From Alphaproteobacteria bacterium (GTDB lineage: Bacteria > Pseudomonadota > Alphaproteobacteria > CACIAM-22H2), in NCBI GenBank assembly GCA_016793165.1, contig JAEULA010000054.1, positions 66,269 to 90,268 of the forward strand: DNA of 24,000 bases, given 5' to 3'. The notes under the pieces are model-generated. The model was not told the DNA's origin and made no database searches. It was given only the letters and a program-made list of their open reading frames with translations. This document shows, one piece after another, positions 1,555-23,475 of the stretch (positions within the stretch are counted from its first letter, which is position 1; every line of letters begins with the position of its first letter). The translations under genes were made by a program, and so were the position numbers.

Positions 1555-2168
1555 AGCGCCCCTCCACGCGCCTCTACCTCGTGACGCCGCCGGCCTTCGA
1601 GCCGGCGGCGTTCGCGTCTCTGCTCGCGCGCACGCTCGATGCCGCGCAGGCGGATTCCGGCGGGGTCGCCGCGCTGCGCCTGCGGCTGCCGGGCGCCGAC
1701 GCCGACACGCTGGGCCGGGCGACGACGGCCATCATCACCGTCGCCCAGTCGCGCGGCGTCGCCCTGCTCATGCACGGCGAGGCCGCGCTCGCGCGCCGGC
1801 TGGGCTGCGACGGCGTCCACGTGCCGCCGCGCGACGTCGCCGCGGCGCGCGCGCTGTTCGGCGCCGAGGGCAGCGTCGGGGCGGGCTGCGGGCGCTCGAC
1901 CGACGCCGCGATGGCGGCGGCGGAGGCCGGCGCCGACTACGTGGCGTTCGGGCCGTGCACCGGCGCCGATGCGGTCGATCCCGAGCGCGTCGCCGACTGG
2001 GCCGTGGCCATGGTCGTGCCCTGCGTCGCGGGGGGCGGCCTCGATGCGACGACCCTGCCCGCCTGGGCCGCGACCGGGGCCGAATTCCTCGCCGTCGGGC
2101 GCGCGGTCTGGGATGCCCCGGAAGGCCCCGAGTCCGCCATCAAGACATTGATGAACGGCCTGAAATAA
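1551..2168 (+). CDS. Thiamine-phosphate synthase (ThiE) family protein, divergent
   Basis: GTG at 1551 overlaps the fbaB stop (GTGA). RLYLVTP, GCDGVHV, GADYVAFGP, PCVAGGGL and GAEFLAVGRAVW follow the TMP-TENI/ThiE fold motif order. Only the last 205 codons of track ORF 57..2168 are credible. Confidence 0.6.
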   Translation: MKRPSTRLYLVTPPAFEPAAFASLLARTLDAAQADSGGVAALRLRLPGADADTLGRATTAIITVAQSRGVALLMHGEAALARRLGCDGVHVPPRDVAAARALFGAEGSVGAGCGRSTDAAMAAAEAGADYVAFGPCTGADAVDPERVADWAVAMVVPCVAGGGLDATTLPAWAATGAEFLAVGRAVWDAPEGPESAIKTLMNGLK

Positions 2169-2249
2169 CCGTCCCGGATCGGTTGAAGCTCAGGGGGCAC
2201 CCTGTTAGGTTCCGCGCCGCTTTCCCTCCCCAGACAGAAGATTTGAGCC

Positions 2250-2816
2250 ATGAAGATCATCGGCAGCGCCGTCCGCGCGGGCAACATCATCGAGTACGAC
2301 GGCAAGATCTGGCGCGTGGTGAAGCACAACGTCGTCAGCCCCGGGAAGGGCTCGGCGTTCAACCAGATCGAGATGCGCGACGCCAAGACCGGCACGAAGA
2401 ACAACGTGAAGCTCCGCGCCGACGAGACGGTCGAGCAGCTGCGCGCCGATCAGAAGGAGATGCAGTACCTGTTCCACGACGGCGACGCGTACACGTTCAT
2501 GGACCAGGAGAGCTTCGAGCAGGTCATGGTCAATCGCGACATGATCGGCGACGCGGCCGACTTCCTCACCGACAACATGATCTGCACGGTCGACCTGATC
2601 GAGGGCGAGATCGTCGGCGTGACGCTGCCGCAGTCGACGATCTGCACGGTCGTCGAAGCCGATGCCGTGGTGAAGGGCCAGACCGCCGCGTCGTCCTACA
2701 AGCCCGCCGTGCTCGACAACGGCGTCAAGATCATGGTCCCGCCCTTCATCGCGACCGGCACGCGGATCGTCGTGAACATCGAAGAGCGGTCGTACATGGA
2801 GCGATCGAAGGACTGA
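2250..2816 (+). CDS. efp: Translation elongation factor P
   Basis: The 188-aa product has the hallmark EF-P region: GNIIEYDGKIWRVVKHNVVSPGKGSAFNQIEMRD...FMDQESFEQ...VKGQTAASSYKPA. Confidence 0.95.
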   Translation: MKIIGSAVRAGNIIEYDGKIWRVVKHNVVSPGKGSAFNQIEMRDAKTGTKNNVKLRADETVEQLRADQKEMQYLFHDGDAYTFMDQESFEQVMVNRDMIGDAADFLTDNMICTVDLIEGEIVGVTLPQSTICTVVEADAVVKGQTAASSYKPAVLDNGVKIMVPPFIATGTRIVVNIEERSYMERSKD

Positions 2817-2841
2817 CGCGCAATCGTCGGGCGCGCGCGCC

Positions 2842-3651
2842 ATGGTCTCCCGCACAGCAATCTACACGGTCATGGAGCGCGCGGTCCGCAAGGCGGCGCG
2901 CGGTCTCGTGCGCGATTTCGGCGAGGTCGAGCATCTCCAGGTCTCGGTCAAGGGCCCCGGCGACTTCGTCTCCAACGCCGACCGGAACTCGGAGCGGATC
3001 CTGCGCGAGGAGCTCGAGCGCGCGCGGCCCGGCTACGGCTTCCTGATGGAGGAAGGCGGCGAGATCGCCGGCGACGGCACGAACCGCTGGATCATCGATC
3101 CGCTCGACGGCACCACCAACTTCCTGCACGGCATCCCGCAGTTCTGCATCTCCGTCGCGCTCGAGCGCAGCGGCGAGGTCGTCGCGGGCATCGTCTACAA
3201 CCCGATCCAGGACGAGCTCTACTGGGCAGAGCGCGGCCACGGCGCCTTCCTGAACGAGCGCCGCCTTCGAGTCTCCGGCCGCCGCAACCTCGAGGACGCG
3301 CTCATCGGCACCGGCATCCCCTTCGGCGATCGCGGCGACCACGCCGTGTATCTGCGCACGCTCGCCGCGGTGATGAACCGCACCGCGGGCACCCGCCGGG
3401 CCGGCGCCGCAGCGCTCGACCTGGCCTATGTCGCGGCCGGCCGCCTCGACGGCTTCTGGGAGTTCGGGCTGCACCCCTGGGACATCGCCGCGGGCATGAT
3501 CCTGATCCGGGAGGCCGGCGGCTTCGTCGAGGATCTCGGCGGCCGCGAGAACCCCATGAAGACGGGCAACGTCCTCGCCGCGAACAGCCACCTGCTCGGG
3601 CCGCTCGGGCGACTCCTGCGCAGCGCCACGGACGGGCCGGGCGCGGCGTGA
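2842..3651 (+). CDS. suhB: Inositol monophosphatase family protein (SuhB-like)
   Basis: FLMEEGG and WIIDPLDGTTNFLHG are IMPase metal-binding signatures, and WDIAAG is the C-terminal motif. Length is 269 aa. Confidence 0.9.
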   Translation: MVSRTAIYTVMERAVRKAARGLVRDFGEVEHLQVSVKGPGDFVSNADRNSERILREELERARPGYGFLMEEGGEIAGDGTNRWIIDPLDGTTNFLHGIPQFCISVALERSGEVVAGIVYNPIQDELYWAERGHGAFLNERRLRVSGRRNLEDALIGTGIPFGDRGDHAVYLRTLAAVMNRTAGTRRAGAAALDLAYVAAGRLDGFWEFGLHPWDIAAGMILIREAGGFVEDLGGRENPMKTGNVLAANSHLLGPLGRLLRSATDGPGAA

Positions 3652-3738
3652 AGCCGCGGCGATCGCACGCGACGAACTCGCGCGCCCGCCGCGAAGTCCG
3701 TTGTCGCCCTGCGCAACCGTGAGTAAGTTGCGGTCCTG

Positions 3739-4938
3739 ATGGCGAAAACGCGGTCGATTCCCGCTCGTTCCGTCTTGCGCGGTGCGCTGGCGGCAGCTCT
3801 CGTCGCGGCTGGCGTGACGGCCGCCGACGCCCAGCAGCAATTGCGTCAGCGACAGTCCAGCGTGACCGTGGACTGGAGCGTCCTGGAGCAACTGCAGCGC
3901 GGCGGCGCCTCGGGAGCTGCAACGCTGACACCGCCATCACGTCAGCAGAAGGTGCAGCGCAGCGCAGCGCGCCCTGCCAGCTCCGCAAACTCGGCCAAAT
4001 CGCGCGCCGCGGCCCGCCGGCCGGCAACGCCCGCGCGCCAGAGCGCACCCGCGGCCGACGTCGCGGAGGAGCCGCCGGTCCTGCTCCGCCCGCCGCCGCC
4101 GGCCCCGCCGCCGCCCGACACCCGCTCGGTGACGGCCGCGGCGCCACCGCCGGAGCCGCCGCGAAACGTGGCAGCGCCAACGCCGCCCGCCGCCGGAAGC
4201 GGCGGCGGATTCGTGCCGCCTGCCCCGCCGCCTGCTTTCGGCGAGCGGCCGCCCGCCGCCACCCCTTCCGTCCCGGTCTCGCCGACGCCGCCCCCGCCGA
4301 GCGTCAGCTCACCCGCTGTCGTCGCCGCGCCCCCGACGCCGCCGGCCGCGGCGGCGGCCCCTGCGGCGCCGCCGGTCGTCGCGACGCCCGCGCCGACACC
4401 GTCGCCCCGGTCGCCCACAGCCGTCGAGTCGGCGCCGGTCGCGCCGCCACCTGCAACGGCGTCGCCGGCACCCCCGCCGAGCGTACCCCCGACGGTCGCC
4501 GCCGCGCCGCCTGCCGCATCGCCGCCGCCCAGCGCGTCCCCGCCCGCCGCGCCGGCTCCGAGCGCGACCCCGGCACCGGAGGCGCCGCAGGTCGCCGCGG
4601 CGCCGCCCGTCTCGCGCGCCGCGGGGCCGCCGCCGAATGCGCGCCTCAGCTTCAGCGGCGAGAGCAACGATCTCCCGGCCGACGGCCGCACCGAGCTTCG
4701 CACCGTCGTCGACCAGATGAAGCGCAGTACCGACCTGCGGCTGCGCATCGAGGGCTATGCGAGCGGCGGCGACGACGCCAACCGCTCGCGGCGCCTGAGC
4801 CTCAGCCGCGCGCTCGCGGTGCGGTCCTACCTGATGGACCAGGGCATCGCGTCGACGCGCATGGACGTCTATGCGCGCGGCCCCCAGACCGACGGCGGTC
4901 CCGCCGACCGCGTCGACCTCACCGTCTTCCGGCGCTGA
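3739..4938 (+). CDS. Secreted or anchored Pro/Ala-rich protein with C-terminal OmpA-like peptidoglycan-binding domain
   Basis: The N-terminus looks like a signal peptide (LRGALAAALVAAGVTAADA|QQQ). About 290 aa of P/A/S/T low complexity follow. The C-terminus is LRLRIEGYASGGDDANRSRRLSLSRALAVRSYLMDQGI...DRVDLTVFRR, which is an OmpA_C-like pattern. Confidence 0.75.
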   Translation: MAKTRSIPARSVLRGALAAALVAAGVTAADAQQQLRQRQSSVTVDWSVLEQLQRGGASGAATLTPPSRQQKVQRSAARPASSANSAKSRAAARRPATPARQSAPAADVAEEPPVLLRPPPPAPPPPDTRSVTAAAPPPEPPRNVAAPTPPAAGSGGGFVPPAPPPAFGERPPAATPSVPVSPTPPPPSVSSPAVVAAPPTPPAAAAAPAAPPVVATPAPTPSPRSPTAVESAPVAPPPATASPAPPPSVPPTVAAAPPAASPPPSASPPAAPAPSATPAPEAPQVAAAPPVSRAAGPPPNARLSFSGESNDLPADGRTELRTVVDQMKRSTDLRLRIEGYASGGDDANRSRRLSLSRALAVRSYLMDQGIASTRMDVYARGPQTDGGPADRVDLTVFRR

Positions 4939-4944
4939 TCGGCG

Positions 4945-6081
4945 ATGACAAAGCCGGTCCGATACCTGATCCGCATGGTGCTCTTCCTCACCTGCGTGGC
5001 CGCGGTGATCTTCTTCCTGCACGAGCAGCTTTTCGTCGCCTTCCGCAACACGCCGATCCTCAACAGCATCATCGTCGCCGTCCTCGTGCTGGGCATCGCG
5101 GAGAATTTCCGGCAGGTCCTGATCCTCAATCCCGAAGTCCTCTGGATCCGCAGCTTCCGCAGCGACCGCCCTGTCGCCGCGCCGCGGCGCCTCAAGCTCC
5201 TCGCGCCGATGGTGGCGATGCTGGGCGAACGCAAGAGCGGCCGGCTGCAGCTGTCGGCGGTCGCCACCCGCGCGCTGCTCGACGGCATCGGCTCGCGCCT
5301 CGACGAATCGCGCGACCTGTCCCGCTACCTGATCGGGCTCCTGATCTTCCTCGGGCTGCTCGGCACGTTCTGGGGCCTGCTCGAGACGGTGAGCGCCGTG
5401 TCCGGCGTCATCTCGAGTCTCAGCGGCGCCACGGACGCGAGTTCGCTGTTCAACGATCTCCAGGCCGGCCTCAAGGCGCCGCTCGGCGGCATGGGCACGG
5501 CCTTCGGGACGTCGCTTTTCGGGCTCGCCGGCTCGCTCGTGGTCGGTTTCCTGGACCTGCAGTCGAGCCAGGCGCAGAACCGCTTCTACAACGAGCTCGA
5601 GGAATGGCTGTCGGGCATCACCCGGCTCGGTGGCGGCGGCCCCGTCGGCGATAGCGACCAGTCGGTCCCCGCCTACATCCAGGCCCTGCTGGAGCAGACC
5701 GCCGACAACCTGGAGAACTTCCAGCGCACCGTGCAGCAGTCGGAACTGGGCCGCCAGGGCGCGAACACCGCGCTGGTGACCCTGGGCGAACGCCTCACCC
5801 AGCTGACCGAGCAGATGCGCACGGAACAGCAGCTCATGACGCGCCTCGCGGAGGCCCAGCTCGAGATCAAGCCGGCACTCCAGCGCTTCGCGGAGTCCGC
5901 CTCGCGCCCGAGCACCGGTGGCGACGAGACGCTGCGCGCCTCGCTCAAGAACATGGAGGCACTGCTCTCGCGGATCCTGGAGGAGACGCAGGCCGGCCGT
6001 TCGCAGCTCACCCAGGACATCCGGAACGAGTTCCGCCTGCTGGCGCGGACGATCGCCGCGCTCGCCGAGGAAGAGCGCTAG
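4945..6081 (+). CDS. MotA/TolQ/ExbB-type proton-channel family protein with about 175-aa helical C-terminal tail
   Basis: Four hydrophobic segments are present. TM3/TM4 carry the family signature (LIFLGLLGTFWGLLETV and GMGTAFGTSLFGLAGSLVVGFL). The gene starts 6 nt after the upstream stop. The tail (residues about 204-378) is Q/E/L/R-rich and heptad-like. Confidence 0.8.
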   Translation: MTKPVRYLIRMVLFLTCVAAVIFFLHEQLFVAFRNTPILNSIIVAVLVLGIAENFRQVLILNPEVLWIRSFRSDRPVAAPRRLKLLAPMVAMLGERKSGRLQLSAVATRALLDGIGSRLDESRDLSRYLIGLLIFLGLLGTFWGLLETVSAVSGVISSLSGATDASSLFNDLQAGLKAPLGGMGTAFGTSLFGLAGSLVVGFLDLQSSQAQNRFYNELEEWLSGITRLGGGGPVGDSDQSVPAYIQALLEQTADNLENFQRTVQQSELGRQGANTALVTLGERLTQLTEQMRTEQQLMTRLAEAQLEIKPALQRFAESASRPSTGGDETLRASLKNMEALLSRILEETQAGRSQLTQDIRNEFRLLARTIAALAEEER

Positions 6082-6162
6082 GGCCCCGGCGATGCGGCCC
6101 CGGGCCGACGAGACTCCTCCCCGCGATCTCGATGACCGTGCCCGTCGCGGCGGCGCACGGCC

Positions 6163-7899
6163 ATGAGGACGACAGGAAGACGGCGCGGCCACGCGCTCGA
6201 CATCTGGCCGGGCTTCGTGGACGCCCTGGCCACGCTGATCATGGTCATCGTCTTCCTGCTGATGATCTTCACGCTGTTCCAGTTCCACCTGAAGGACCTG
6301 ATCAGCGGGCGCGACCAGGCGCTCGACCAGCTGTCGCGACGCATCGGCGACCTCGCCGACCAGCTCGCGCTGGAGCGTCGCGGGGCGGCCGACCTGCGGG
6401 ACCAGATCGACCTCCTGTCAGGCGAGCTCGCGTCGTCGATCACCATCCGCGACCGCCTGCAGTCCGAGCTCGCGACCGCCGAGGGCCGGGTGCGCGCGGT
6501 CGAAGGCAACCTGTCCGCCGAGGAGGCGCGCCGGCGACAGATCGAGGCTCTTCTGGCTGCCGCCGAGACGCGCGGCCGCGATCTCGACGCGCGCCTCGCC
6601 GCGCGCGACGCCCAGGCCCGCGATCTCGACGCCCGCCTTGCAACGCGCGACGCCGAGGCACGCGATCTCGCTTCGCGCCTGGCTGCGCGGGAAGGCGAGG
6701 CGCGCGATCTCGCGACGCGCCTGGCATCGCGCGACGGCGAAGCCCGCGACCTCGCGAACCGGCTGGCGACGCGCGACGGCGAAGCGCGAGAACTGGCCCA
6801 GCGCCTCTCGGACGCCGAGGGCCGCATCCAGCTCAGCGCGCGGGAGGCGGCCGCCCTCACCCAGCGGCTCGCCGCGGCCGAAGGCCGCGCCGCCGAGGCC
6901 GAGGCGCGCGCCACGCGTTCCGACGCCCGCAGCGCCGATCTCGCGCGCCGCATCGAGGAGGCCGAGGCCCGTGCGCGCGACGCCGGCAGCCGGGTCACCC
7001 TCAGCGCGAACGAGGCCGCCGCACTCGCGCAGCGTCTCGCGGCCGCCGAGGCGCGCCTGCGCGAGGCGGACGGCCGGCTCGAGGACGCCTTCAAGTCGAT
7101 CGCGGCGGACCGCGAGAAGATCGAGGTGCAGCTGCGCGAGCTCGACGCGCTGCGGCAGAACATCCAGACGCTGACGATCCTGCGCGACCAGCTCGAGCGC
7201 GACCTCGCGGCGCGCAGCGTCGAGCTGCGCGGGGCCGATCAGGCGCTGACCGCGGAGCGCAAGCTGTCGAGCGACTCCCAGCTCCGGATCGACGCGCTGA
7301 CGCGCCAGATCAACGCGCTGCAGCAGCAGCTCGGCCGGCTGGAGACGGCGCTCGACGCGAGCGAGGCGAAGTCCCGCGAGCAGCAGGTGCAGATCGTCGA
7401 TCTCGGCCGGCGCCTCAACCTGGCGCTGGCGAGCAAGGTCGAGGAGCTGGCGCGCTACCGCTCGGAGTTCTTCGGCCGCCTGCGCGAGGCGCTCGGCGAT
7501 CGCAACGACGTGCGCGTCGTCGGCGACCGCTTCATCTTCGAGACCGAGGTGCTGTTCGAGTCCGGGTCCGCGGCGCTCCAACCCGAGGGCCGGCGTCAGA
7601 TCGACCGCGTCGGCGCCGCGCTGCGCGAGATCACCGCGCAGATCCCGGCCGACGTCAACTGGATCCTCCAGGTCGACGGTCACACCGACCGGCGTCCGGT
7701 CCTGCGCGCCTTCGCCTCGAACTGGGAGCTGTCGCATGCCCGCGCCATGTCGGTCGTGCGCGCGCTGATGGCCGCCGGCATCCCGGCCGAGCGCCTCGCC
7801 GCCGCCGGCTACGCGGAGTTCCAGCCGCTCGATCCGCGCGACGACGAGGCCGCGTTCCGGCGCAATCGCCGCATCGAGCTGAAGCTCACCAACCGCTGA
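6163..7899 (+). CDS. MotB-like protein: N-terminal TM anchor with conserved Asp, long coiled coil, C-terminal OmpA/MotB peptidoglycan-binding domain
   Basis: The N-terminus DIWPGFVDALATLIMVIVFLLMIF (Asp20, codon 6220-6222) resembles the MotB/ExbD/TolR plug-TM region. The C-terminus FESGSAAL...VDGHTDRRP...SNWELSHARA...NRRIELKL is OmpA_C-like. Residues about 45-430 are A/R/E/L-rich coiled coil. An in-frame stop at 6133 fixes ATG 6163 as the first start. Confidence 0.8.
   Translation: MRTTGRRRGHALDIWPGFVDALATLIMVIVFLLMIFTLFQFHLKDLISGRDQALDQLSRRIGDLADQLALERRGAADLRDQIDLLSGELASSITIRDRLQSELATAEGRVRAVEGNLSAEEARRRQIEALLAAAETRGRDLDARLAARDAQARDLDARLATRDAEARDLASRLAAREGEARDLATRLASRDGEARDLANRLATRDGEARELAQRLSDAEGRIQLSAREAAALTQRLAAAEGRAAEAEARATRSDARSADLARRIEEAEARARDAGSRVTLSANEAAALAQRLAAAEARLREADGRLEDAFKSIAADREKIEVQLRELDALRQNIQTLTILRDQLERDLAARSVELRGADQALTAERKLSSDSQLRIDALTRQINALQQQLGRLETALDASEAKSREQQVQIVDLGRRLNLALASKVEELARYRSEFFGRLREALGDRNDVRVVGDRFIFETEVLFESGSAALQPEGRRQIDRVGAALREITAQIPADVNWILQVDGHTDRRPVLRAFASNWELSHARAMSVVRALMAAGIPAERLAAAGYAEFQPLDPRDDEAAFRRNRRIELKLTNR
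6574..6825 (+). repeat. Six tandem 42-bp (14-aa, two-heptad) repeats inside the MotB-like coiled coil
   Basis: The units are GRDLDARLAARDAQ / ARDLDARLATRDAE / ARDLASRLAAREGE / ARDLATRLASRDGE / ARDLANRLATRDGE / ARELAQRLSDAEGR. The repeat is visible at DNA level as reiterated gcgcgatctcg...cgc units. Confidence 0.9.
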
Positions 7900-7907
7900 C
7901 GGCGAGC

Positions 7908-7933
7908 GGGTCGCGGCGCCGCTGCCGCGACCC
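7908..7933. terminator. GC-rich stem-loop between convergent genes (possible terminator, no U-tract)
   Basis: gggtcgcggc (7908-7917) and gccgcgaccc (7924-7933) form a perfect 10-bp stem with a 6-nt loop. It sits between the MotB-like stop (7899) and the ABC transporter stop (7957). Confidence 0.35.
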
Positions 7934-7956
7934 CTCGGCGAGCGACCCGGCGCGGC

Positions 7957-9732
7957 TCAGCTCGGCATGTCGGCGAGGAGCTGCAGCGAGGCGAGGCGCG
8001 CATAGAGTCCGCCGGCCTGCGCGAGCACGGCGTGCGGTCCCGTCTCGACGACCCTGCCGCGATCGAGCACGACGATGCGATCGGCACGCTGCACGGTGGC
8101 GAGGCGGTGCGCGATCACCAGCGTGGTCCGGCTGCGCGCCAGCCCGTCCAGCGCCTTCTGGACGAGCCGCTCGCTCTCGGCGTCGAGCGCCGAAGTCGCC
8201 TCGTCCAGCAGCAGCACGGCCGGATCGCGAAGGATCGCGCGGGCGATCGCGAGCCGCTGCTTCTGCCCGGTCGAGAGCCGCTGCCCCTTCTCGCCGAGCT
8301 GCGTGGCGAAGCCCTGCGGCAGGCGCTCGATAAACTCCAGCGCATGCGCGGCATCGGCCGCGGCGCGAAGCTCGGCATCGCTCGCCTCCGGGCGCGCGAA
8401 TCGGATGTTCGCCGCGACGTCGGTCGCGAAGATCACGGGCTCCTGCGGTACGAGCGCGACGCGACGGCGAAGGTCGGCCGGATCGCAATGCCGGATGTCG
8501 ACCCCGTCGAAGAGGATCCGGCCCGCCTGCGGATCGTAGAACCGCAGCGCGAGCTGGAGGATCGTCGACTTGCCCGATCCGGAAGGGCCGACGATCGCCA
8601 CCGCCTCGCCAGGCGCGACGTCGAGGGACAGCTCGTCGATCGCCGGGCGCTCCGGCCGCGTCGGATAGGTGAACCCGACCCGGTCGAAGACGAGCGCGCC
8701 GCGCGGCGGCACGGGGAGCGGCAGCGGCGCGGCCGGCACGGCGATGTCGGAGCGCGCGTCGAGCAGCTCGAACAGGCGCTCGGCGGCGCCAGCGGCGCGC
8801 TGCAGGTCGCCGATGAACTCGCTGAGCGACCCGACCGACCCCGCCACGACCACGGCATAGAAAACGAAGGCCGACAGCTGCCCGGCCGAGATGTCGCCGG
8901 CGATCGCGGCGTGGCCGCCGATCCACAGCACGATCCCGATGGCGCCGAACACCAGCATGATGACGACGGCGGCGAGCGCCGCCCGCGCCCGGTTGCGCCG
9001 ATGCGCGGCCGCGACGGTGGCCTCGACCCGCGCGGCGAAGTGGTCGCGGCGCTCGGGCTCCCGGCCGAAGGCCTGGACCGTGCGCACCGCGTTGAGCGTC
9101 TCCTCGATGTCAGCTCCGGTATCGGCCAGGCGATCCTGGCTCGCCCGCGAAAGGGCGCGCACGCGCCGCCCGAAGACGATGATCGGAGCGACCACGAGCG
9201 GCAGCACGCCGAAGGTCAGCAGCGTCAGCTTCGGCGACGTCACCGCCATCATCGTCGTCCCGCCGACGACGAGCAGGACGTTGCGCAGGGCCATCGACAG
9301 CGACGAACCCACGATCGTCTGCAGCAGCGTGGTGTCGGCGACGAGGCGCGAGATCACGTCGCCGACGCGCGTCGTCTCGAAGAACGCCGGCGACAGCGAC
9401 AGCACATGGTCGAAGACGCTCCGGCGCAGGTCGGCGGCGATCCGCTCGCCGATCCATGCCACCATCAGCGCGCGCGCGAAGGTCGCGATCGACAGCGCCG
9501 CCACGACGACGAGCAGCCCCAGCAGCGCCTGGTCGAGACGGGAGGAATCGCCCGTGGCGAAGCCCGTGTCGACCAGCCAGCGCAGGCCGGCGCCGAACCC
9601 GAGCACGGCCAGCGATGCCGCCGTCAGGGCGATGGCCGCGACGGCCACGCGGCCGCGATAGGGGCGGACATAGCCGCCGAGGCGGCGCAGCACGCCGAGG
9701 CCTGCGCGCGGCTTGTCCTGGTCGTCGCTCAT
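7957..9732 (-). CDS. ABC exporter, fused permease/ATPase half-transporter (ABCB/MsbA class, ABCB10/Mdl1-like)
   Basis: The 591-aa product has Walker A GPSGSGKST, signature LSTGQKQRLAIARA and Walker B LLLDEATSALD. TMD motifs GDVISRLVADTTLLQ and VRTVQAFGRE resemble the ABCB10/Mdl1 subfamily. Confidence 0.85.
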   Translation of the reverse strand: MSDDQDKPRAGLGVLRRLGGYVRPYRGRVAVAAIALTAASLAVLGFGAGLRWLVDTGFATGDSSRLDQALLGLLVVVAALSIATFARALMVAWIGERIAADLRRSVFDHVLSLSPAFFETTRVGDVISRLVADTTLLQTIVGSSLSMALRNVLLVVGGTTMMAVTSPKLTLLTFGVLPLVVAPIIVFGRRVRALSRASQDRLADTGADIEETLNAVRTVQAFGREPERRDHFAARVEATVAAAHRRNRARAALAAVVIMLVFGAIGIVLWIGGHAAIAGDISAGQLSAFVFYAVVVAGSVGSLSEFIGDLQRAAGAAERLFELLDARSDIAVPAAPLPLPVPPRGALVFDRVGFTYPTRPERPAIDELSLDVAPGEAVAIVGPSGSGKSTILQLALRFYDPQAGRILFDGVDIRHCDPADLRRRVALVPQEPVIFATDVAANIRFARPEASDAELRAAADAAHALEFIERLPQGFATQLGEKGQRLSTGQKQRLAIARAILRDPAVLLLDEATSALDAESERLVQKALDGLARSRTTLVIAHRLATVQRADRIVVLDRGRVVETGPHAVLAQAGGLYARLASLQLLADMPS

Positions 9733-10625: not shown

Positions 10626-11048
10626 TCAGTCGGCGGCGCTGACGGCCGCGGCGTCGCTGACCAGCGCATTGAGGTGGCGGACCCGCACATAGAGGCGCCG
10701 GCTGCGCGAGAGCAGCTGCACGAGCCGCGCGGGCAGTTCGGTTGCTCCGGACTCGGTCTCCGCCAGGCAGGTCGGGTCGTCGGGCACGCTGAACGCCGGC
10801 CCGCTCGCCTCGAGCGGCGTGATCTCTCCGGCGGCGGCGGCCTTCTGCGCCAGCATCCACGCCATCACCTGCGCGAGCCGGGCCGTGACGCGCATGGTTT
10901 CGGCGCTGATCTGGAGCCGTTCGATGGCCGGGATGTCGTCGCCCGCCGCGGGATCCATGTACGCGATGTAGTTGCGCGTCTCGACGAGGAGCTCGACCGC
11001 CTCGTCGTAGGTCTTCTTGAAGAACACGCTGTTCGCCGCCATCGCCAT
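10626..11048 (-). CDS. rcdA: DUF1465 family protein (RcdA-like regulator of CtrA degradation / protease adaptor)
   Basis: The 140-aa product starts FFKKTYDEAVELLVETRNYIAY... and is helical with an acidic C-terminal tail. This fits my recollection of the DUF1465/RcdA family. The start (11048 or 11042) is uncertain. Confidence 0.55.
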   Translation of the reverse strand: MAMAANSVFFKKTYDEAVELLVETRNYIAYMDPAAGDDIPAIERLQISAETMRVTARLAQVMAWMLAQKAAAAGEITPLEASGPAFSVPDDPTCLAETESGATELPARLVQLLSRSRRLYVRVRHLNALVSDAAAVSAAD

Positions 11049-17980: not shown

Positions 17981-18123
17981 GCTCGCGTTTCCGCGACATC
18001 GAGACTGGTGTGGGCGGGTGCCTCGGTTGGATCCACGCCGGTCCGGCTGAGCTCTCGGCCCGCTCCTGTTTCGGCGGATGTCCTCACGTCGATAGCCCGT
18101 TACGCCTGGAGGTAGACAAGGCC

Positions 18124-18771
18124 ATGAGCTTGCCCCTGATGCCAAAGGCGACAGCAGTCTGGCTGGTGGAGAACACCGGCCTGACCTTCGAACAGATCGC
18201 CGAGTTCTGCGGCATGCACGCGCTCGAGGTGCAGGGCATCGCCGACGGCGAAGTCGCGATCGGGATCGTCGGCGCCGATCCGATCGCCAACAGCCAGCTG
18301 ACCCGCGAGGAGATCCAGCGCTGCGAGGCCGATCGCAAGGCGCGCCTCAAGCTGCTTGCGACGGAGATCCCGCCGCCGATGGTGCGCTCGAAGGGCGCGC
18401 GCTACACGCCGATCGCCAAGCGCCAGGACAAGCCCAGCGCGATCGCGTGGCTGCTGCGCCATCATCCCGAACTCACCGACGCGCAGGTCGGCCGCCTGCT
18501 CGGCACGACCAAGGCGACGATCCAGAAGGTCCGGGATCGCAGCCATTGGGACATGCAGAACATCAAGCCGACCAGCCCGGTCATGCTCGGCCTTTGCAGC
18601 CAGAATGCGCTCGACGATGCGATCGCCAAGGCGGCACGGGTCGCCGAGCGGCGGCGCAAGGAATCGGAGCGCGCCCAGCGTCGCAGCGAGCGCGACAAGG
18701 CCGACGCCGCGGCCGCCAAGGCGGACGAAGCGGTGGCCGGCGATGACGGCGAGCCGGCGGCGAATTCCTGA
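18124..18771 (+). CDS. trcR: DUF1013 family protein (TrcR-like cell-cycle transcriptional regulator)
   Basis: MSLPLMPKATAVWLVENTGLTFEQIAEFCGMHALEVQGIADGEV... is the hallmark DUF1013 N-terminus. GGAGG RBS lies upstream of ATG 18124. The C-terminal tail is charged and K/R/E/A-rich. Confidence 0.7.
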   Translation: MSLPLMPKATAVWLVENTGLTFEQIAEFCGMHALEVQGIADGEVAIGIVGADPIANSQLTREEIQRCEADRKARLKLLATEIPPPMVRSKGARYTPIAKRQDKPSAIAWLLRHHPELTDAQVGRLLGTTKATIQKVRDRSHWDMQNIKPTSPVMLGLCSQNALDDAIAKAARVAERRRKESERAQRRSERDKADAAAAKADEAVAGDDGEPAANS

Positions 18772-18786: not shown

Positions 18787-19560
18787 TCAATCCACCGCCA
18801 CCGTGTAGTTCAGTCCGAGGCGCCCGCCGTCGGGATAGATCGTCGTTCCGGTGATGTAGGAGCTCTCGTCGCTGGCGAGGAACACCACCACCGAGCCGAT
18901 TTCCGACGGCTCCCCGAGCCGCTTCATCGGCGTGCGGCTCATCACCCGCCGCCGCGCCTCGTCGCTCGACAGCACCGAGGCCTTGGCGAGGTCGGTGGCG
19001 ATCGTCCCCGGGCCGATGGCGTTGACCCGGATCCCGTGATCGACCAGCGACAGCGCCATCACCTTGGTCAGCTGGTTCACCCCGCCCTTGGCCGCGACAT
19101 AGGCCGGGATCGACGGGATGGCGAGCACCGCGTTCACCGACGACATGTTGATGATCGCATAGCTGCCCTTCGCGGGCTTGCCCTGCTTCACCATCTGACG
19201 CGCCGCAGCCTGGCCGGTCAGGAAGACGCCCTTCAGGTTGACGCGCATCACGCGGTCCCAGTCCTCCTCCTTGAGCGTGAGGAAGTCGCCCGACAGCGAG
19301 ATGCCCGCATTGCTCACCATGATGTCGAGCCGGCCATGGCGCGCGACCGCCGCCTCGACGAGGGCATTCACCTGTGCGCTGTCACCGACGTCGCATCGCA
19401 CGAAGCTCGCCGCCGCCCCCAGCTTCGCCGCCGCCGCCGCGCCGTCGTTCACGTCGCTGAGCACGACCTTCGCGCCCTCGCGCAGCAGCGCCTCCGCGCA
19501 GGCATGGCCGATGCCCTGCGCCGCGCCCGTGACGATCGCGACCTTGTCCTTGAGTCTCAT
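18787..19560 (-). CDS. SDR-family oxidoreductase
   Basis: MRLKDKVAIVTGAAQGIG, SNAG, the YVAAKGG catalytic Y-x3-K, and RVNAIGPG are present. The start is in an ATGA overlap with the upstream acyl-CoA ligase stop. Confidence 0.85.
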   Translation of the reverse strand: MRLKDKVAIVTGAAQGIGHACAEALLREGAKVVLSDVNDGAAAAAKLGAAASFVRCDVGDSAQVNALVEAAVARHGRLDIMVSNAGISLSGDFLTLKEEDWDRVMRVNLKGVFLTGQAAARQMVKQGKPAKGSYAIINMSSVNAVLAIPSIPAYVAAKGGVNQLTKVMALSLVDHGIRVNAIGPGTIATDLAKASVLSSDEARRRVMSRTPMKRLGEPSEIGSVVVFLASDESSYITGTTIYPDGGRLGLNYTVAVD

Positions 19561-21482: not shown

Positions 21483-21578
21483 GACGAGTCCTCCCGTTTG
21501 GCGAAATCTGCCTGCTGGGCCATGTCTTGCAAAGCCCGGGCTGTGGCAGATTGCGCGCCCGACGAGGAGGACTTCACG

Positions 21579-23276: not shown

Positions 23277-23475
23277 GCGTCGGCGCCGCCAGACGCACGC
23301 CGCGAGCGGCCCGGTCGGCCGGTTGCGAGCGATGAGGTGGCAGAGGTTGCGCTCGCGGATCCGAACACGGCGGCGCGCCGGCCGCTCCAATTCCGGTCCG
23401 CGCTGCCGAGTTCGCGACCCGGCCTAATCCGCGCGACGGCGCGAGGCGCCGTGGAAGTGACGGTCGCCGCGGGCG

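What the first reader, a model, noticed from the sequence alone, without database searches (positions are those of the whole stretch)
3739..7899. Orphan MotA/MotB-like stator pair preceded by a Pro/Ala-rich OmpA-domain protein: candidate uncharacterised ion-driven envelope module
What the sequence shows:
- Three co-oriented genes with 6-nt and 81-nt gaps.
- Gene 2 carries the MotA/ExbB/TolQ channel signature in its last two TM helices (GLLGTFWGLLE; GMGTAFGTSLFGLAGSLVVGF).
- Gene 3 has the MotB/ExbD/TolR-type single TM preceded by the conserved acidic residue (FVD20ALATLIMVIVFLL) and ends in an OmpA/MotB peptidoglycan-binding domain (NWELSHARA...NRRIEL). Unusually, about 390 aa of coiled coil lie between them.
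- Gene 1 adds a second OmpA-like domain on a roughly 290-aa proline-rich spacer.

Established knowledge: MotAB, ExbBD, TolQR and ZorAB are 5:2 ion-driven rotary motors built from exactly this pairing.

Inference: nothing else in the 24 kb belongs to flagella, Tol-Pal, TonB-dependent uptake or Zorya (no ZorC/D-like genes). The architecture, with the long coiled coil on the B subunit and an extra PG-binding partner, does not match any of those characterised systems. It may therefore be a distinct stator-like machine that couples the inner membrane to the cell wall.
Basis: partly seen in the sequence, partly recalled or inferred. Interest (0 to 1): 0.7.

Follow-up and report, generated by a model that had tools for sequence, protein, structure and literature searches.

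The report
Conserved ZorAB-like envelope motor genes
Three adjacent genes encode what looks like a proton-driven inner-membrane motor tied to the cell wall by a very long coiled-coil stalk. The set sits at the same chromosomal spot across Alphaproteobacteria and is closest to the motor of the Zorya phage-defence system. It is not a defence, flagellar, Ton or Tol system, and what it does is still unknown.

Summary
Three co-oriented genes are present: g1 3739-4938, g2 4945-6081 and g3 6163-7899, with 6-nt and 81-nt gaps.

- **g2** is a four-helix MotA/ExbB/TolQ-superfamily channel subunit. It fails the curated MotA, TolQ and ExbB models. In profile comparison it is clearly closest to ZorA (90% probability, against 21%, 27% and 4% for TolQ, ExbB and MotA).
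- **g3** has the invariant transmembrane Asp20, an unbroken heptad coiled coil of about 390 residues, and a MotB/PomB-type peptidoglycan-binding domain.
- **g1** is an exported protein with a conserved N-terminal motif, a Pro/Ala spacer and a divergent OmpA-like domain.

The order efp-suhB-[g1]-g2-g3 is conserved in 80 alphaproteobacterial genomes and in Sinorhizobium meliloti, which lacks g1. No Zorya effector, flagellar, Ton or Tol genes lie nearby.

New here: the coil length varies from about 140 to 490 residues across the family, almost always in whole heptads.

The pair is catalogued (NCBIfam PRK09039). Its probable orthologues in non-flagellated Komagataeibacter were overexpressed in two applied studies and gave elongated cells. 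No mechanism is known.

Best reading: a vertically inherited housekeeping 5:2 motor anchored to peptidoglycan. It is a new variant of a known kind.

The parts
3739..4938 (+). g1: exported accessory protein of 399 aa, made of a signal peptide, a conserved N-terminal motif, a Pro/Ala-rich spacer and a divergent OmpA-like domain
   Evidence: ORF. Pfam OmpA matches aa 305-383. An OmpA-like hit lies directly upstream of g2 in 57 of 80 related loci. The long in-frame form is conserved.
3739..3831 (+). g1 signal peptide (aa 1-31, predicted cleavage ADA|QQQ)
   Evidence: Read from the sequence. Orthologues have the same n-h-AxA|Q layout. The cleavage site is inferred, not predicted by a tool.
3859..3894 (+). 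g1 conserved mature N-terminal motif SVTVDWSVLEQL (family pattern sVxVDxSVLDxL)
   Evidence: A regular expression finds it in 34 of 49 orthologues, always about 10 residues after the signal peptide. It is also present in L081.
4651..4887 (+). g1 divergent OmpA-like domain (family consensus AYAxG...ARRLSLSRALAVRSYL; the canonical GHTD Asp is missing)
   Evidence: Pfam PF00691 E 8.3e-13. Column counts over 49 orthologues are.
4945..6081 (+). g2: A subunit of 378 aa, a ZorA-like member of the MotA/ExbB/TolQ channel superfamily with four hydrophobic segments
   Evidence: - Pfam MotA_ExbB scores only 14.1 bits, below the 22.9 cut-off.
- NCBIfam gives no MotA, TolQ or ExbB hit.
- PADLOC ZorA3 gives E 2.1e-15.
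- hhalign against EcZorA2 gives 90% probability and E 1.5e-6.
- The top Foldseek hits are TolQ, ZorA and ExbB.
5317..5553 (+). g2 channel core: TM3 (GLLGT141FWGLLE), a periplasmic loop and TM4 (GMGT185AFGTS190LFG)
   Evidence: This is the region that matches the ZorA profiles. Thr141, Thr185 and Ser190 are invariant. AF2 pLDDT here is 80-88.
5665..6081 (+). g2 cytoplasmic helical C-terminal domain (aa 241-378), joined by a Gly-rich linker (aa 229-240)
   Evidence: AF2 helices at 242-320 and 327-377, with low pLDDT at 229-245. Heptad phase covers 242-312. VPAYIQALLEQTADNLE and RLLARTIAA are invariant or nearly so.
6163..7899 (+). g3: B subunit of 578 aa, made of a transmembrane helix with Asp20, a continuous coiled coil and a MotB-type peptidoglycan-binding domain
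   Evidence: NCBIfam NF006543 scores 435 bits against a cut-off of 305. g3 follows g2 in all 73 loci with enough downstream sequence.
6205..6282 (+). g3 transmembrane helix with the WPGFVD20AL motif (Asp20 codon at 6220-6222)
   Evidence: The motif is invariant.
6283..7482 (+). g3 periplasmic coiled coil (aa about 41-440)
   Evidence: A single heptad phase and a Fourier peak at 3.5. AF2 predicts it as all helix. The family-wide length is quantised in heptads.
6576..6782 (+). Tandem 42-nt repeat, 4.9 copies, encoding 14-aa double-heptad units (ARDLxxRLAxRDGE) inside the coil
   Evidence: Tandem Repeats Finder score 215 with 80% matches.
7552..7869 (+). g3 OmpA/MotB-type peptidoglycan-binding domain, with GHTD and NWELSHARA both present
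   Evidence: Pfam PF00691 E 4.6e-15. PDB PomB, MotB and MotS at E 1e-12. hhalign against E. coli MotB gives 96.7% probability.

Best explanation
g2 and g3 form a ZorAB/MotAB-type ion-driven inner-membrane motor, presumably with five A subunits and two B subunits. It is a vertically inherited housekeeping module of Alphaproteobacteria.

**Proposed mechanism**
- Two g3 transmembrane helices carrying Asp20 sit inside a ring of g2 subunits.
- TM3 and TM4 of g2 supply the invariant Thr141, Thr185 and Ser190.
- Proton flow via Asp20 turns the g2 ring relative to the g3 dimer.
- g3 is fixed to peptidoglycan by its MotB-type C-terminal domain. That domain sits at the end of a continuous, probably parallel two-stranded coiled coil: about 390 residues here and about 140-490 in the family.
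- The g2 ring is therefore the moving part.
- Its likely output element is the conserved cytoplasmic helical domain (aa 241-378), which hangs on a Gly-rich tether.
- g1 is an exported accessory present in about three quarters of lineages. It has an N-terminal strand-like motif, a Pro/Ala spacer and a divergent OmpA-like domain.
- The physiological role is probably in envelope organisation or cell division.

**Shown:** homology, the invariant residues, coil continuity, synteny, and the absence of flagellar, Ton, Tol and Zorya partner genes.

**Inferred:** the 5:2 stoichiometry, proton coupling, which part moves, the output, and the physiological role.
For: **Motor membership**
- The Asp in WPGFVD is invariant in 73/73 and 46/46 sequences.
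- Thr141, Thr185 and Ser190 of g2 are invariant. They correspond in position to ZorA Thr147 and Ser184, which contact ZorB Asp26 (PMC11946911).
- The AF2 model of g2 has as its best solved matches only A subunits of 5:2 motors: TolQ 8odt, ZorA 8vvn and 8qyd, and ExbB 5sv0, all at probability 1.0.

**ZorA affinity**
- PADLOC ZorA3 gives E 2e-15 for g2 and ZorA1 gives E 1e-12 for the S. meliloti orthologue. E. coli TolQ reaches only E 2.5e-3, and ExbB and MotA give nothing.
- hhalign probabilities are 90% for ZorA2 against 21%, 27% and 3.6% for TolQ, ExbB and MotA.

**Peptidoglycan anchor**
- The g3 C-terminal domain keeps GHTD and LSxxRA.
- It matches PomB and MotB.

**Continuous coil**
- One heptad phase runs from aa 41 to about 400.
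- The distance from the transmembrane Asp to the RYRSEFF motif takes 50 distinct values between 160 and 510 residues. Of these, 35 are congruent to 6 mod 7 (binomial P 6e-19).
- Ten of the remaining fifteen values fall in the +3 and +4 offset classes.

**Housekeeping and vertical inheritance**
- efp-suhB-[g1]-g2-g3 is conserved in 80 genomes spanning Rhodospirillales-like lineages, Asaia, Novispirillum, Ferrovibrio, Kordiimonadales, Minwuia, Kiloniellales and Stellaceae.
- It is also conserved in S. meliloti.
- g2 identities across these genomes are 50-85%.

**Function hint**
- The probable orthologues in non-flagellated K. hansenii gave elongated cells, filaments or chains when overexpressed.
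- The GFP fusions were polar (PMC6315621, PMC6570709).
- Orthology is supported by the primer-encoded peptides.
Against: - No stoichiometry, ion dependence or rotation has been measured for any family member.
- g2 is very distant from every solved motor. A profile search of PDB sequences found nothing. The Foldseek E-values are only about 2e-3, on a model with mean pLDDT 67.6.
- The C-terminal domain of g2 is joined by a Gly-rich linker. It is only about 140 aa, unlike the continuous ZorA tail of 400 aa or more, so the tail analogy is weak.
- Even the shortest coil, at about 21 nm, exceeds the roughly 9 nm from inner membrane to peptidoglycan quoted for E. coli. The longest, at about 73 nm, cannot stand upright in a periplasm. 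The geometry is unexplained.
- The AF2 monomer model of g3 breaks the coil at aa 217-227, 275-281 and 358-368, at low confidence (pTM 0.32).
- The Komagataeibacter data are weak:
  - Only overexpression was tested.
  - GFP was placed on the periplasmic end of MotB.
  - Polar foci can be aggregates.
  - Orthology rests on short primer-encoded peptides.
Confidence: 0.55

Rival explanations
1. Static tether or scaffold. g3 is mainly a structural periplasmic coiled-coil strut or filament that links the inner membrane to peptidoglycan. g2 is only its membrane anchor or chaperone. No rotation takes place.
For: - The coil is very long and of variable length (160-510 residues from Asp to domain). This fits a spacer or cytoskeletal element better than a torque-bearing linker.
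- There are weak similarities to crescentin, tropomyosin and SMC coils.
Against: - The transmembrane Asp and the Thr/Ser residues of the channel are invariant across roughly 50% sequence divergence. This is hard to explain without ion coupling.
- g2 and g3 are always adjacent.
Confidence: 0.15
2. Tol-Pal/TonB-like periplasmic force transducer. The motor's output is periplasmic. It pulls on or remodels the wall or outer membrane through the g3 stalk, with g1 as the transducer or target.
For: - The layout of g1 recalls TonB and TolA spacers: an N-terminal motif, a Pro-rich spacer (29% Pro) and a C-terminal binding domain.
- g1 stops 6 nt before g2 starts.
- TM3 of g2 carries the TolQ/ExbB-type GLxGTxWG motif.
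- Overexpression of the Komagataeibacter genes gave a division-type phenotype like that of Tol defects.
Against: - g1 has a cleavable signal peptide, not a TonB/TolA-type membrane anchor. It therefore cannot dock on the motor's rim in the known way.
- g1 is missing from Stellaceae, S. meliloti and others, while g2 and g3 persist.
- The spacer length of g1 does not co-vary with the coil length of g3 (rho -0.17, n=22).
- g3 has no ExbD/TolR-type domain.
Confidence: 0.12
3. A Zorya-type anti-phage defence module, or a degenerate remnant of one.
For: g2 and g3 give their best family-level matches to the ZorA3 and ZorB3 profiles. g2 also matches E. coli ZorA2.
Against: - No ZorC, D, E, F or G, and no other defence gene, lies within the window.
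- The pair sits at the same core locus (efp-suhB...) in all 80 genomes and in S. meliloti, which is the opposite of defence-island behaviour.
- The tail is about 140 aa, against 440 aa in EcZorA2.
- ZorB has its peptidoglycan-binding domain fused without a linker, whereas g3 has a coil of about 400 aa.
Confidence: 0.04
4. A divergent flagellar stator paralogue (MotAB/PomAB), as many public annotations state.
For: - NCBI and JGI name the homologues 'flagellar motor protein MotA' and 'chemotaxis protein MotB'.
- The topology has four transmembrane segments.
- The peptidoglycan-binding domain of g3 is closest to PomB and MotB.
Against: - Pfam MotA_ExbB is below threshold and no NCBIfam MotA or PomA model hits.
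- hhalign against E. coli MotA gives 3.6% probability.
- MotA and PomA appear only from rank 41 in the Foldseek list.
- The cytoplasmic loop between TM2 and TM3 is only about 65 aa.
- There is no flagellar gene context anywhere.
- S. meliloti has this pair outside its flagellar regulon.
- The probable orthologues exist in non-flagellated Komagataeibacter.
Confidence: 0.03

Closest known systems
ZorAB, the motor core of the Zorya anti-phage systems (ZorA5B2; Hu et al. 2024, PMC11946911)
   Same: - It is the best profile-level relative of g2. PADLOC ZorA3 gives E 2e-15. hhalign against EcZorA2 gives 90% probability and 36% identity over 112 columns that cover both channel helices and the start of the tail.
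- The B subunit has a transmembrane Asp and a peptidoglycan-binding domain.
- The A subunit has a helical cytoplasmic C-terminal extension.
- The Thr/Ser pair faces the Asp.
   Different: - There are no effector genes and the locus is core and syntenic.
- The C-terminal domain is about 140 aa and follows a Gly-rich linker, rather than being a continuous pentameric tail of 400 aa or more.
- g2 has an extra N-terminal transmembrane helix: four hydrophobic segments against three in ZorA.
- ZorB fuses its peptidoglycan-binding domain directly to the transmembrane helix, whereas g3 inserts 140-490 residues of coiled coil.
Flagellar stators MotAB, PomAB and MotPS
   Same: - The B subunit plan is the same: an N-terminal transmembrane Asp followed by a C-terminal OmpA-like domain.
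- These are the best solved matches for that domain (PomB, MotB and MotS at E 1e-12; hhalign 96.7%).
- The A subunit has a four-segment topology.
   Different: - The A subunit fails all MotA and PomA models.
- It has no large FliG-facing cytoplasmic domain.
- There is no plug or flexible linker. A rigid heptad coil starts right at the membrane.
- There is no flagellar context.
TolQR-TolA-Pal and ExbBD-TonB
   Same: - TM3 of g2 carries GLLGTFWG, matching GLFGTVWG in TM2 of TolQ and ExbB.
- TolQ and ExbB top the structural matches.
- The likely setting is the envelope or cell division.
   Different: - The B subunit has an OmpA-like domain, not an ExbD/TolR domain.
- There is no TolA or TonB-type anchored partner.
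- Only 19 columns align.
- S. meliloti has a separate Tol-Pal system (PMC7327166).
'MotA/MotB' of non-flagellated Komagataeibacter hansenii ATCC 23769 (Jacek et al. 2018, PMC6315621; 2019, PMC6570709)
   Same: They are probably true orthologues.
- The primer-encoded peptides VTRPTTY (MotA N-terminus), EFRLTDR-stop (MotB C-terminus), AITVVK and QPLDNG match the family-specific motifs MTRPxRY, RIE[LF][KR]LTxR-stop, RAISVVK and FQPLD.
- The genes are adjacent, the A subunit has four transmembrane segments, and the B subunit has one plus an OmpA-like domain.
   Different: - The proteins are shorter (348 and 321 aa).
- The papers treat them as flagellar-type stators and offer no mechanism.
- The data are overexpression phenotypes (elongation, colony spreading, looser cellulose) and polar GFP foci.
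NCBIfam PRK09039 sub-models NF006542-NF006546 ('peptidoglycan-binding protein')
   Same: g3 scores 435 bits against NF006543, whose cut-off is 305, so it is a catalogued family member.
   Different: The family carries a name only. No function is attached, and no curated model exists for the A subunit or in Pfam.

Membership tests
5:2 ion-driven motor superfamily (MotAB/ExbBD/TolQR/ZorAB/GldLM) | Invariant acidic residue in the single transmembrane helix of the B subunit | tested here: met
   Asp20 in WPGFVD is invariant in 73/73 orthologues and 46/46 homologues.
5:2 ion-driven motor superfamily (MotAB/ExbBD/TolQR/ZorAB/GldLM) | A subunit whose last two transmembrane helices carry conserved Thr/Ser facing the Asp, and which has the A-subunit fold | tested here: met
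   Thr141, Thr185 and Ser190 are invariant. The best Foldseek matches are exclusively TolQ, ZorA and ExbB at probability 1.0 but E about 2e-3, on a model with pLDDT 67.6.
5:2 ion-driven motor superfamily (MotAB/ExbBD/TolQR/ZorAB/GldLM) | A5B2 stoichiometry and ion-driven rotation | not testable with these tools
   Complex modelling was not available. This needs cryo-EM or biochemistry.
Flagellar stator MotAB/PomAB | A subunit reaches the curated MotA/PomA model thresholds | tested here: not met
   Pfam PF01618 scores 14.1 bits against a cut-off of 22.9. No NCBIfam MotA or PomA hit at E<=0.1. hhalign against EcMotA gives 3.6%.
Flagellar stator MotAB/PomAB | B subunit with a plug and flexible linker between the transmembrane helix and the OmpA-like domain | tested here: not met
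   A continuous heptad coil starts at aa 41, directly after the transmembrane helix. The OmpA-like domain itself is MotB-like.
Flagellar stator MotAB/PomAB | Flagellar or chemotaxis gene context, or dependence on a flagellum | tested here: not met
   The neighbours are housekeeping genes in the window and in 81 other loci. Probable orthologues occur in non-flagellated Komagataeibacter.
ExbBD/TolQR | A subunit reaches the TolQ/ExbB models; B subunit has the ExbD/TolR periplasmic domain | tested here: not met
   No NCBIfam TolQ or ExbB hit. hhalign aligns only 19 columns at 21-27% probability. The B subunit has an OmpA-like domain, not ExbD.
ExbBD/TolQR | Membrane-anchored TonB/TolA-type transducer encoded nearby | tested here: not met
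   None in the window. g1 has a cleavable signal peptide instead of an anchor.
Zorya (ZorAB plus effectors) | ZorA and ZorB profile matches | tested here: met
   g2 hits ZorA3 at E 2.1e-15 and g3 hits ZorB3 at E 5.5e-22. Controls: TolQ 2.5e-3, and ExbB and MotA none. hhalign against EcZorA2 gives 90%. For g2 the match covers only the channel core.
Zorya (ZorAB plus effectors) | Adjacent effector genes (ZorC/D, ZorE or ZorF/G) | tested here: not met
   Pfam and PADLOC scans of all neighbours are negative.
Zorya (ZorAB plus effectors) | Long continuous ZorA tail; ZorB peptidoglycan-binding domain fused to the transmembrane helix without a linker | tested here: not met
   A C-terminal domain of about 140 aa follows a Gly-rich linker, against 550-aa EcZorA2. 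g3 has a coil of about 400 aa, against the linker-less ZorB.
Zorya (ZorAB plus effectors) | Patchy distribution in defence islands | tested here: not met
   The same core locus is found in 80 genomes and in S. meliloti.
NCBIfam PRK09039 'peptidoglycan-binding protein' (NF006543) | Whole-protein score above the curated cut-off | tested here: met
   435.2 bits against a cut-off of 305.

The most novel reading that the evidence does not exclude
Alphaproteobacteria carry a universal, vertically inherited housekeeping rotary motor that is the sister of the Zorya sensor motor.
- It is leashed to the cell wall by a 20-70 nm parallel coiled coil whose length drifts by whole heptads.
- It works in polar or septal envelope organisation through a rotating cytoplasmic domain.
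- Zorya's ZorAB would then be a defence-island offshoot of such housekeeping motors, or the reverse.
- The long stalk would represent a new way of coupling a 5:2 motor to the sacculus.
Probability: 0.4. Interest if true: 0.8.

Novelty: new variant of a known kind. Interest (0 to 1): 0.6.

Why it matters
Known 5:2 motors power flagella, gliding and type IX secretion, TonB uptake, Tol-Pal constriction and Zorya defence. Each new output has taught new biology.

- This pair is conserved at 50-85% identity across Alphaproteobacteria, a class that includes rhizobia, Brucella relatives, acetic acid bacteria and marine lineages. It has no Pfam family for its A subunit, is widely mis-annotated as flagellar MotA/MotB, and has no known function.
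- Its closest relative is the Zorya motor. It therefore offers a non-defence comparator for asking how ZorAB senses envelope perturbation and where that system came from.
- The heptad-quantised coil of 140-490 residues is a natural length series. It allows a direct test of whether stalk length or register matters for a peptidoglycan-anchored motor.
- A practical point: correcting the 'flagellar motor protein' annotation matters when motility is inferred from genomes and metagenome-assembled genomes.

Tried and rejected
- **Rgs polar-growth proteins of S. meliloti.** None is MotA- or OmpA-like. RgsF (SMc03995, Sel1 repeats) is merely a neighbour of the S. meliloti pair. The supplements do not mention the genes.
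- **ChvI-binding fragment inside SMc03993 (PMC3687685).** SMc03994 is rpsU, so SMc03993 is probably not the orthologue. The lead was dropped.
- **Literature searches.** Searches for PRK09039, stator-like, MotA-like/MotB-like, ZorAB homologues and surveys of 5:2 motor families found no mechanistic study. The mBio 2025 survey (flagellar versus generic ion transporters) and the MBE 2025 force-transducer paper do not describe this family.
- **Profile search of PDB sequences with the g2 family.** It returned only spurious coiled-coil hits.
- **Shared-ruler idea.** The spacer length of g1 does not correlate with the coil length of g3 (rho -0.17, P 0.46, n=22). g3 is somewhat shorter where g1 is absent (median 344 against 390, Mann-Whitney P 3e-4), but this is confounded by phylogeny.
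- **Promoter and terminator scan of 2100-8200.** Nothing useful.
- **AF2 monomer model of g3.** The coil breaks are low-confidence and cannot decide between a hairpin and an extended coil.
- **Taxon names for distant g2 homologues.** The cluster look-up returned no names.
- **Arcobacter plasmid g2-like gene in a type I secretion cluster.** Too weak to use, and it has no Pfam match.

Full report
**1. What is in the sequence**

The window is about 70% G+C. It carries three co-oriented ORFs exactly as described: g1 3739-4938 (399 aa), g2 4945-6081 (378 aa) and g3 6163-7899 (578 aa), separated by 6 and 81 nt. g2 and g3 show the codon-position GC pattern of real genes in this genome, with GC3 of 0.93.

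Pfam finds an OmpA domain in g1 (aa 305-383, E 8e-13) and in g3 (aa 464-569, E 5e-15). For g2 it gives only a sub-threshold MotA_ExbB match of 14.1 bits against a cut-off of 22.9.

NCBIfam places g3 above the curated cut-off of NF006543, the PRK09039 'peptidoglycan-binding protein' family (435 bits against 305). It has no model at all for g2, and no TolQ, ExbB, MotA or PomA hit.

The surroundings are housekeeping genes:
- a DeoC-type aldolase, EF-P and SuhB upstream;
- a convergent MsbA-related ABC exporter (TIGR02204), frataxin, an RcdA-like DUF1465 protein, Hsp20 and others downstream.

No flagellar, Ton, Tol or defence genes are present.

**2. The A subunit (g2)**

Hydropathy gives four hydrophobic segments at about aa 8-30, 37-58, 126-150 and 180-203. 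These are followed by a Gly-rich linker (aa 229-240) and a helical C-terminal domain (aa 241-378) with heptad character over aa 242-312.

The family is large and strongly conserved:
- at least 8000 homologues, the top 120 of which are at least 60% identical;
- 3626 clusters at 50% identity with E<1e-3, and 770 with E<1e-30;
- invariant Thr141 (GLLGTFWG), Thr185 and Ser190 (GMGTAFGTS), plus the tail motifs VPAYIQALLEQTADNLE and RLLARTIAA.

A profile search of all PDB sequences found no motor protein.

An AF2 model has mean pLDDT 67.6, rising to 80-88 in the membrane helices. Its best solved matches are only A subunits of 5:2 motors: TolQ 8odt, ZorA 8vvn and 8qyd, and ExbB 5sv0, at probability 1.0 and E about 2e-3. 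MotA and PomA appear only from rank 41.

Like-for-like profile comparisons rank the relatives clearly:

| Compared with the g2 family | Probability | E-value | Aligned columns |
|---|---|---|---|
| E. coli ZorA2 (EDL933) | 90% | 1.5e-6 | 112 |
| E. coli ExbB | 27% | 6.8e-4 | 19 |
| E. coli TolQ | 21% | 1.1e-3 | 19 |
| E. coli MotA | 3.6% | 0.012 | 53 |

The ZorA2 alignment spans both channel helices and the start of the tail.

The PADLOC profiles agree. g2 hits ZorA3 at E 2e-15 and the S. meliloti orthologue hits ZorA1 at E 1e-12. E. coli TolQ reaches only 2.5e-3, and ExbB and MotA give nothing.

In ZorAB, Thr147 and Ser184 of ZorA contact Asp26 of ZorB (PMC11946911). The invariant Thr/Ser residues of g2 sit at the corresponding positions. 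This equivalence is inferred from the alignment.

**3. The B subunit (g3)**

The N-terminus carries WPGFVD20AL. The Asp is invariant in 73 of 73 genome orthologues and 46 of 46 database homologues.

The C-terminal domain keeps GHTD and NWELSxARA. It is closest to PomB, MotB and MotS among solved structures (E 1e-12). hhalign gives 96.7% against E. coli MotB and 88.8% against ZorB2. PADLOC ZorB3 gives E 5.5e-22.

Between the two ends, a single heptad phase runs from aa 41, directly after the membrane helix, to about aa 400. There is one short local excursion and a sharp Fourier peak at 3.5 residues. There is therefore no MotB-type plug or flexible linker.

Part of the coil is a recent expansion: 4.9 copies of a 42-nt repeat (6576-6782) encode 14-residue double heptads.

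**4. A new observation: the stalk length is quantised in heptads**

I measured the distance from the transmembrane Asp to the conserved RYRSEFF motif at the base of the peptidoglycan-binding domain.

- In 75 genome orthologues it ranges from 160 to 412 residues. Fifty of the 75 are congruent to 6 mod 7. Another 23 fall in the +3 and +4 classes, the offsets expected for coiled-coil stammers and stutters.
- In an independent set of 116 database homologues, 110 are congruent to 6 mod 7, over a range of 216-510 residues.
- Counting distinct lengths only, 35 of 50 fall in one residue class (binomial P 6e-19).
- The window protein, at 412, is in the main class.

Steps of a single heptad occur (216, 223, 230; 398, 405, 412, 419). 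By inference, this favours one continuous parallel coil over an intramolecular hairpin.

What this shows directly is that the membrane-proximal and domain-proximal conserved coil segments belong to one register-preserving coiled coil in all members.

At 0.1485 nm per residue the stalk would be about 21-73 nm long. That is longer than the roughly 9 nm from inner membrane to peptidoglycan quoted for E. coli. The longest versions are longer than any periplasm is wide. The geometry, whether tilted, in-plane or a leash, is unexplained. The AF2 monomer model (pTM 0.32) cannot settle it.

**5. g1**

All orthologues share the same plan:
- a signal peptide ending AxA|Q;
- about 10 residues later, a conserved sVxVDxSVLDxL motif (34 of 49 by regular expression);
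- a Pro/Ala-rich spacer, here 29% Pro and 24% Ala over aa 32-300;
- an OmpA-like domain whose family consensus (AYAxG...ARRLSLSRALAVRSYL) lacks the Asp of the canonical GHTD motif.

Peptidoglycan binding by g1 is therefore not assured.

Many public gene calls truncate this gene to the last 100-200 codons. The long in-frame form with signal peptide and motif is nevertheless conserved.

**6. Conservation and context elsewhere**

In the best 80 loci the order efp-suhB-[g1]-g2-g3 is essentially invariant.

- g3 follows g2 wherever the contig allows: 73 loci have both ends of g3, and the rest are cut by contig ends.
- g1 is present in 57 of the 80.
- In 20 loci suhB lies only 38-618 nt from g2, leaving no room for g1. 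These are Stellaceae and some marine lineages.

The taxa include Rhodospirillales-like metagenome-assembled genomes, Asaia, Novispirillum, Ferrovibrio, Defluviicoccus, Kordiimonadales, Minwuia and Kiloniellales.

A mislabelled S. meliloti chromosome in PLSDB shows thiE-sel1(RgsF)-suhB-'MotA/TolQ/ExbB family protein' (368 aa)-'peptidoglycan-binding protein' (342 aa)-ABC exporter-rpmE-DUF1465, without g1.

This is the pattern of a vertically inherited core module, not of a defence island or a flagellar regulon.

**7. Literature**

I found no mechanistic study. Recent surveys of MotAB relatives and of periplasmic force transducers do not describe this family.

Two applied papers on non-flagellated Komagataeibacter hansenii ATCC 23769 studied adjacent 'motA' (348 aa, four transmembrane segments) and 'motB' (321 aa, one transmembrane segment plus an OmpA-like domain). 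The authors describe them as the only motility-like genes in that genome.
- Overexpression gave elongated cells, filaments or chains, more colony spreading and looser cellulose.
- C-terminal GFP fusions were polar.
- The authors state that the role is unclear (PMC6315621, PMC6570709).

Their primers encode VTRPTTY, EFRLTDR-stop, AITVVK and QPLDNG. These match the family-specific motifs MTRPxRY, RIE[LF][KR]LTxR-stop, RAISVVK and FQPLD. I take the genes to be orthologues, but this is an inference from short peptides.

The phenotypes are weak evidence. Only overexpression was tested, GFP sat on a periplasmic terminus, and the foci may be aggregates.

**8. Interpretation**

Best explanation (confidence about 0.55): a ZorAB/MotAB-type proton-driven motor, presumably A5B2.
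- Its B dimer is anchored to peptidoglycan through a long continuous coiled coil.
- Its A ring is the moving part, with the conserved cytoplasmic C-terminal domain as the likely output.
- It is a housekeeping module of Alphaproteobacteria, plausibly acting in envelope organisation or cell division.
- g1 is a lineage-variable periplasmic accessory.

Shown: homology, invariant coupling residues, coil continuity, synteny, and the absence of known partner genes. Inferred: stoichiometry, ion coupling, which part moves, and the physiological role.

Rivals:

| Rival | Confidence | Main objection |
|---|---|---|
| Non-rotating structural tether | 0.15 | Disfavoured by the invariant Asp/Thr/Ser residues |
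| Tol/Ton-like periplasmic force transducer using g1 | 0.12 | g1 has no membrane anchor, is dispensable in many lineages, and its length does not co-vary with the coil |
| Zorya-type defence | 0.04 | No effectors, core synteny, short tail, long stalk |
| Flagellar stator paralogue | 0.03 | Fails all A-subunit tests and the context test |

**9. Verdict**

- the pair is specifically ZorAB-like at the subunit level;
- it is catalogued, and its probable Komagataeibacter orthologues have been studied, though only by overexpression;
- g1 is an accessory with a non-canonical OmpA-like domain.

It is a new variant of a known kind. Its interest is moderate to high because of its breadth, its kinship with the Zorya motor and the heptad-quantised stalk.

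Noticed in passing
window 3739-4938; L081 3883-4938: Public gene calls for g1 homologues are mostly truncated to an OmpA-only protein of 100-200 aa. In L081 a spurious opposite-strand ORF is called over the Pro-rich part. The long in-frame form with signal peptide and the VDVDWSVIDEL-type motif is nevertheless conserved.
   Followed up: yes
L082 (CP090106.1): The PLSDB record 'Sinorhizobium meliloti Ak57 plasmid pSymB' is 3.72 Mb and carries core genes (purE, thiE, suhB, rpmE). It looks like the chromosome under a wrong label. Three 3.52-Mb Sinorhizobium records and a 4.6-Mb Shinella record in the same collection are similar.
   Followed up: partly
L086 5525-8370 (Arcobacter plasmid CP146529.1): A weakly g2-like hypothetical protein (375 aa, tblastn E 5e-4) is followed by a 250-aa hypothetical protein. 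Both sit inside a type I secretion cluster (ABC, HlyD, TolC). Neither has a Pfam match. This may be another uncharacterised motor-like pair.
   Followed up: partly
window 6163-7899 (aa about 220-240 and 273-293): Besides the 42-nt tandem repeat, g3 has a longer duplicated unit with the motif xLSAxEAAALxQRLAAAExR about 53 residues apart. The AF2 monomer model places its low-confidence helix breaks next to these units.
   Followed up: no
window 10626-11048 (-) and 18010-18771 (+): An RcdA-like DUF1465 protein and a TrcR-family cell-cycle regulator lie in the window. DUF1465 is also near the pair in S. meliloti. This is probably conserved alphaproteobacterial synteny rather than a functional link.
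   Followed up: no
window 7957-9732 (-): The convergent downstream gene is an MsbA-related ABC exporter (TIGR02204, 824 bits, above its cut-off). A matching ABC exporter recurs downstream of g3, convergently oriented, in many of the related loci and in S. meliloti. A functional link to the envelope module was not tested.
   Followed up: partly
L082 3430-4575 (S. meliloti): In S. meliloti the pair lies two genes downstream of a sel1-repeat gene that corresponds to RgsF (SMc03995). RgsF is an essential polar-growth and septation factor. RgsB (SMc04006) and RgsC (SMc04010) have nearby locus numbers. This may be coincidental.
   Followed up: partly
window 19557-23390: Two AMP-binding (acyl/acetyl-CoA synthetase-type) genes lie on opposite strands, one of them with an ACAS_N domain. 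Long overlapping antisense ORFs here are artefacts of the high GC content.
   Followed up: no
window 6082-6162: The 81-nt gap between g2 and g3 starts with a GC-rich near-palindrome (GGCCCCGGCGATGCGGCCCCGGGCC). It was not examined as a possible RNA structure.
   Followed up: no
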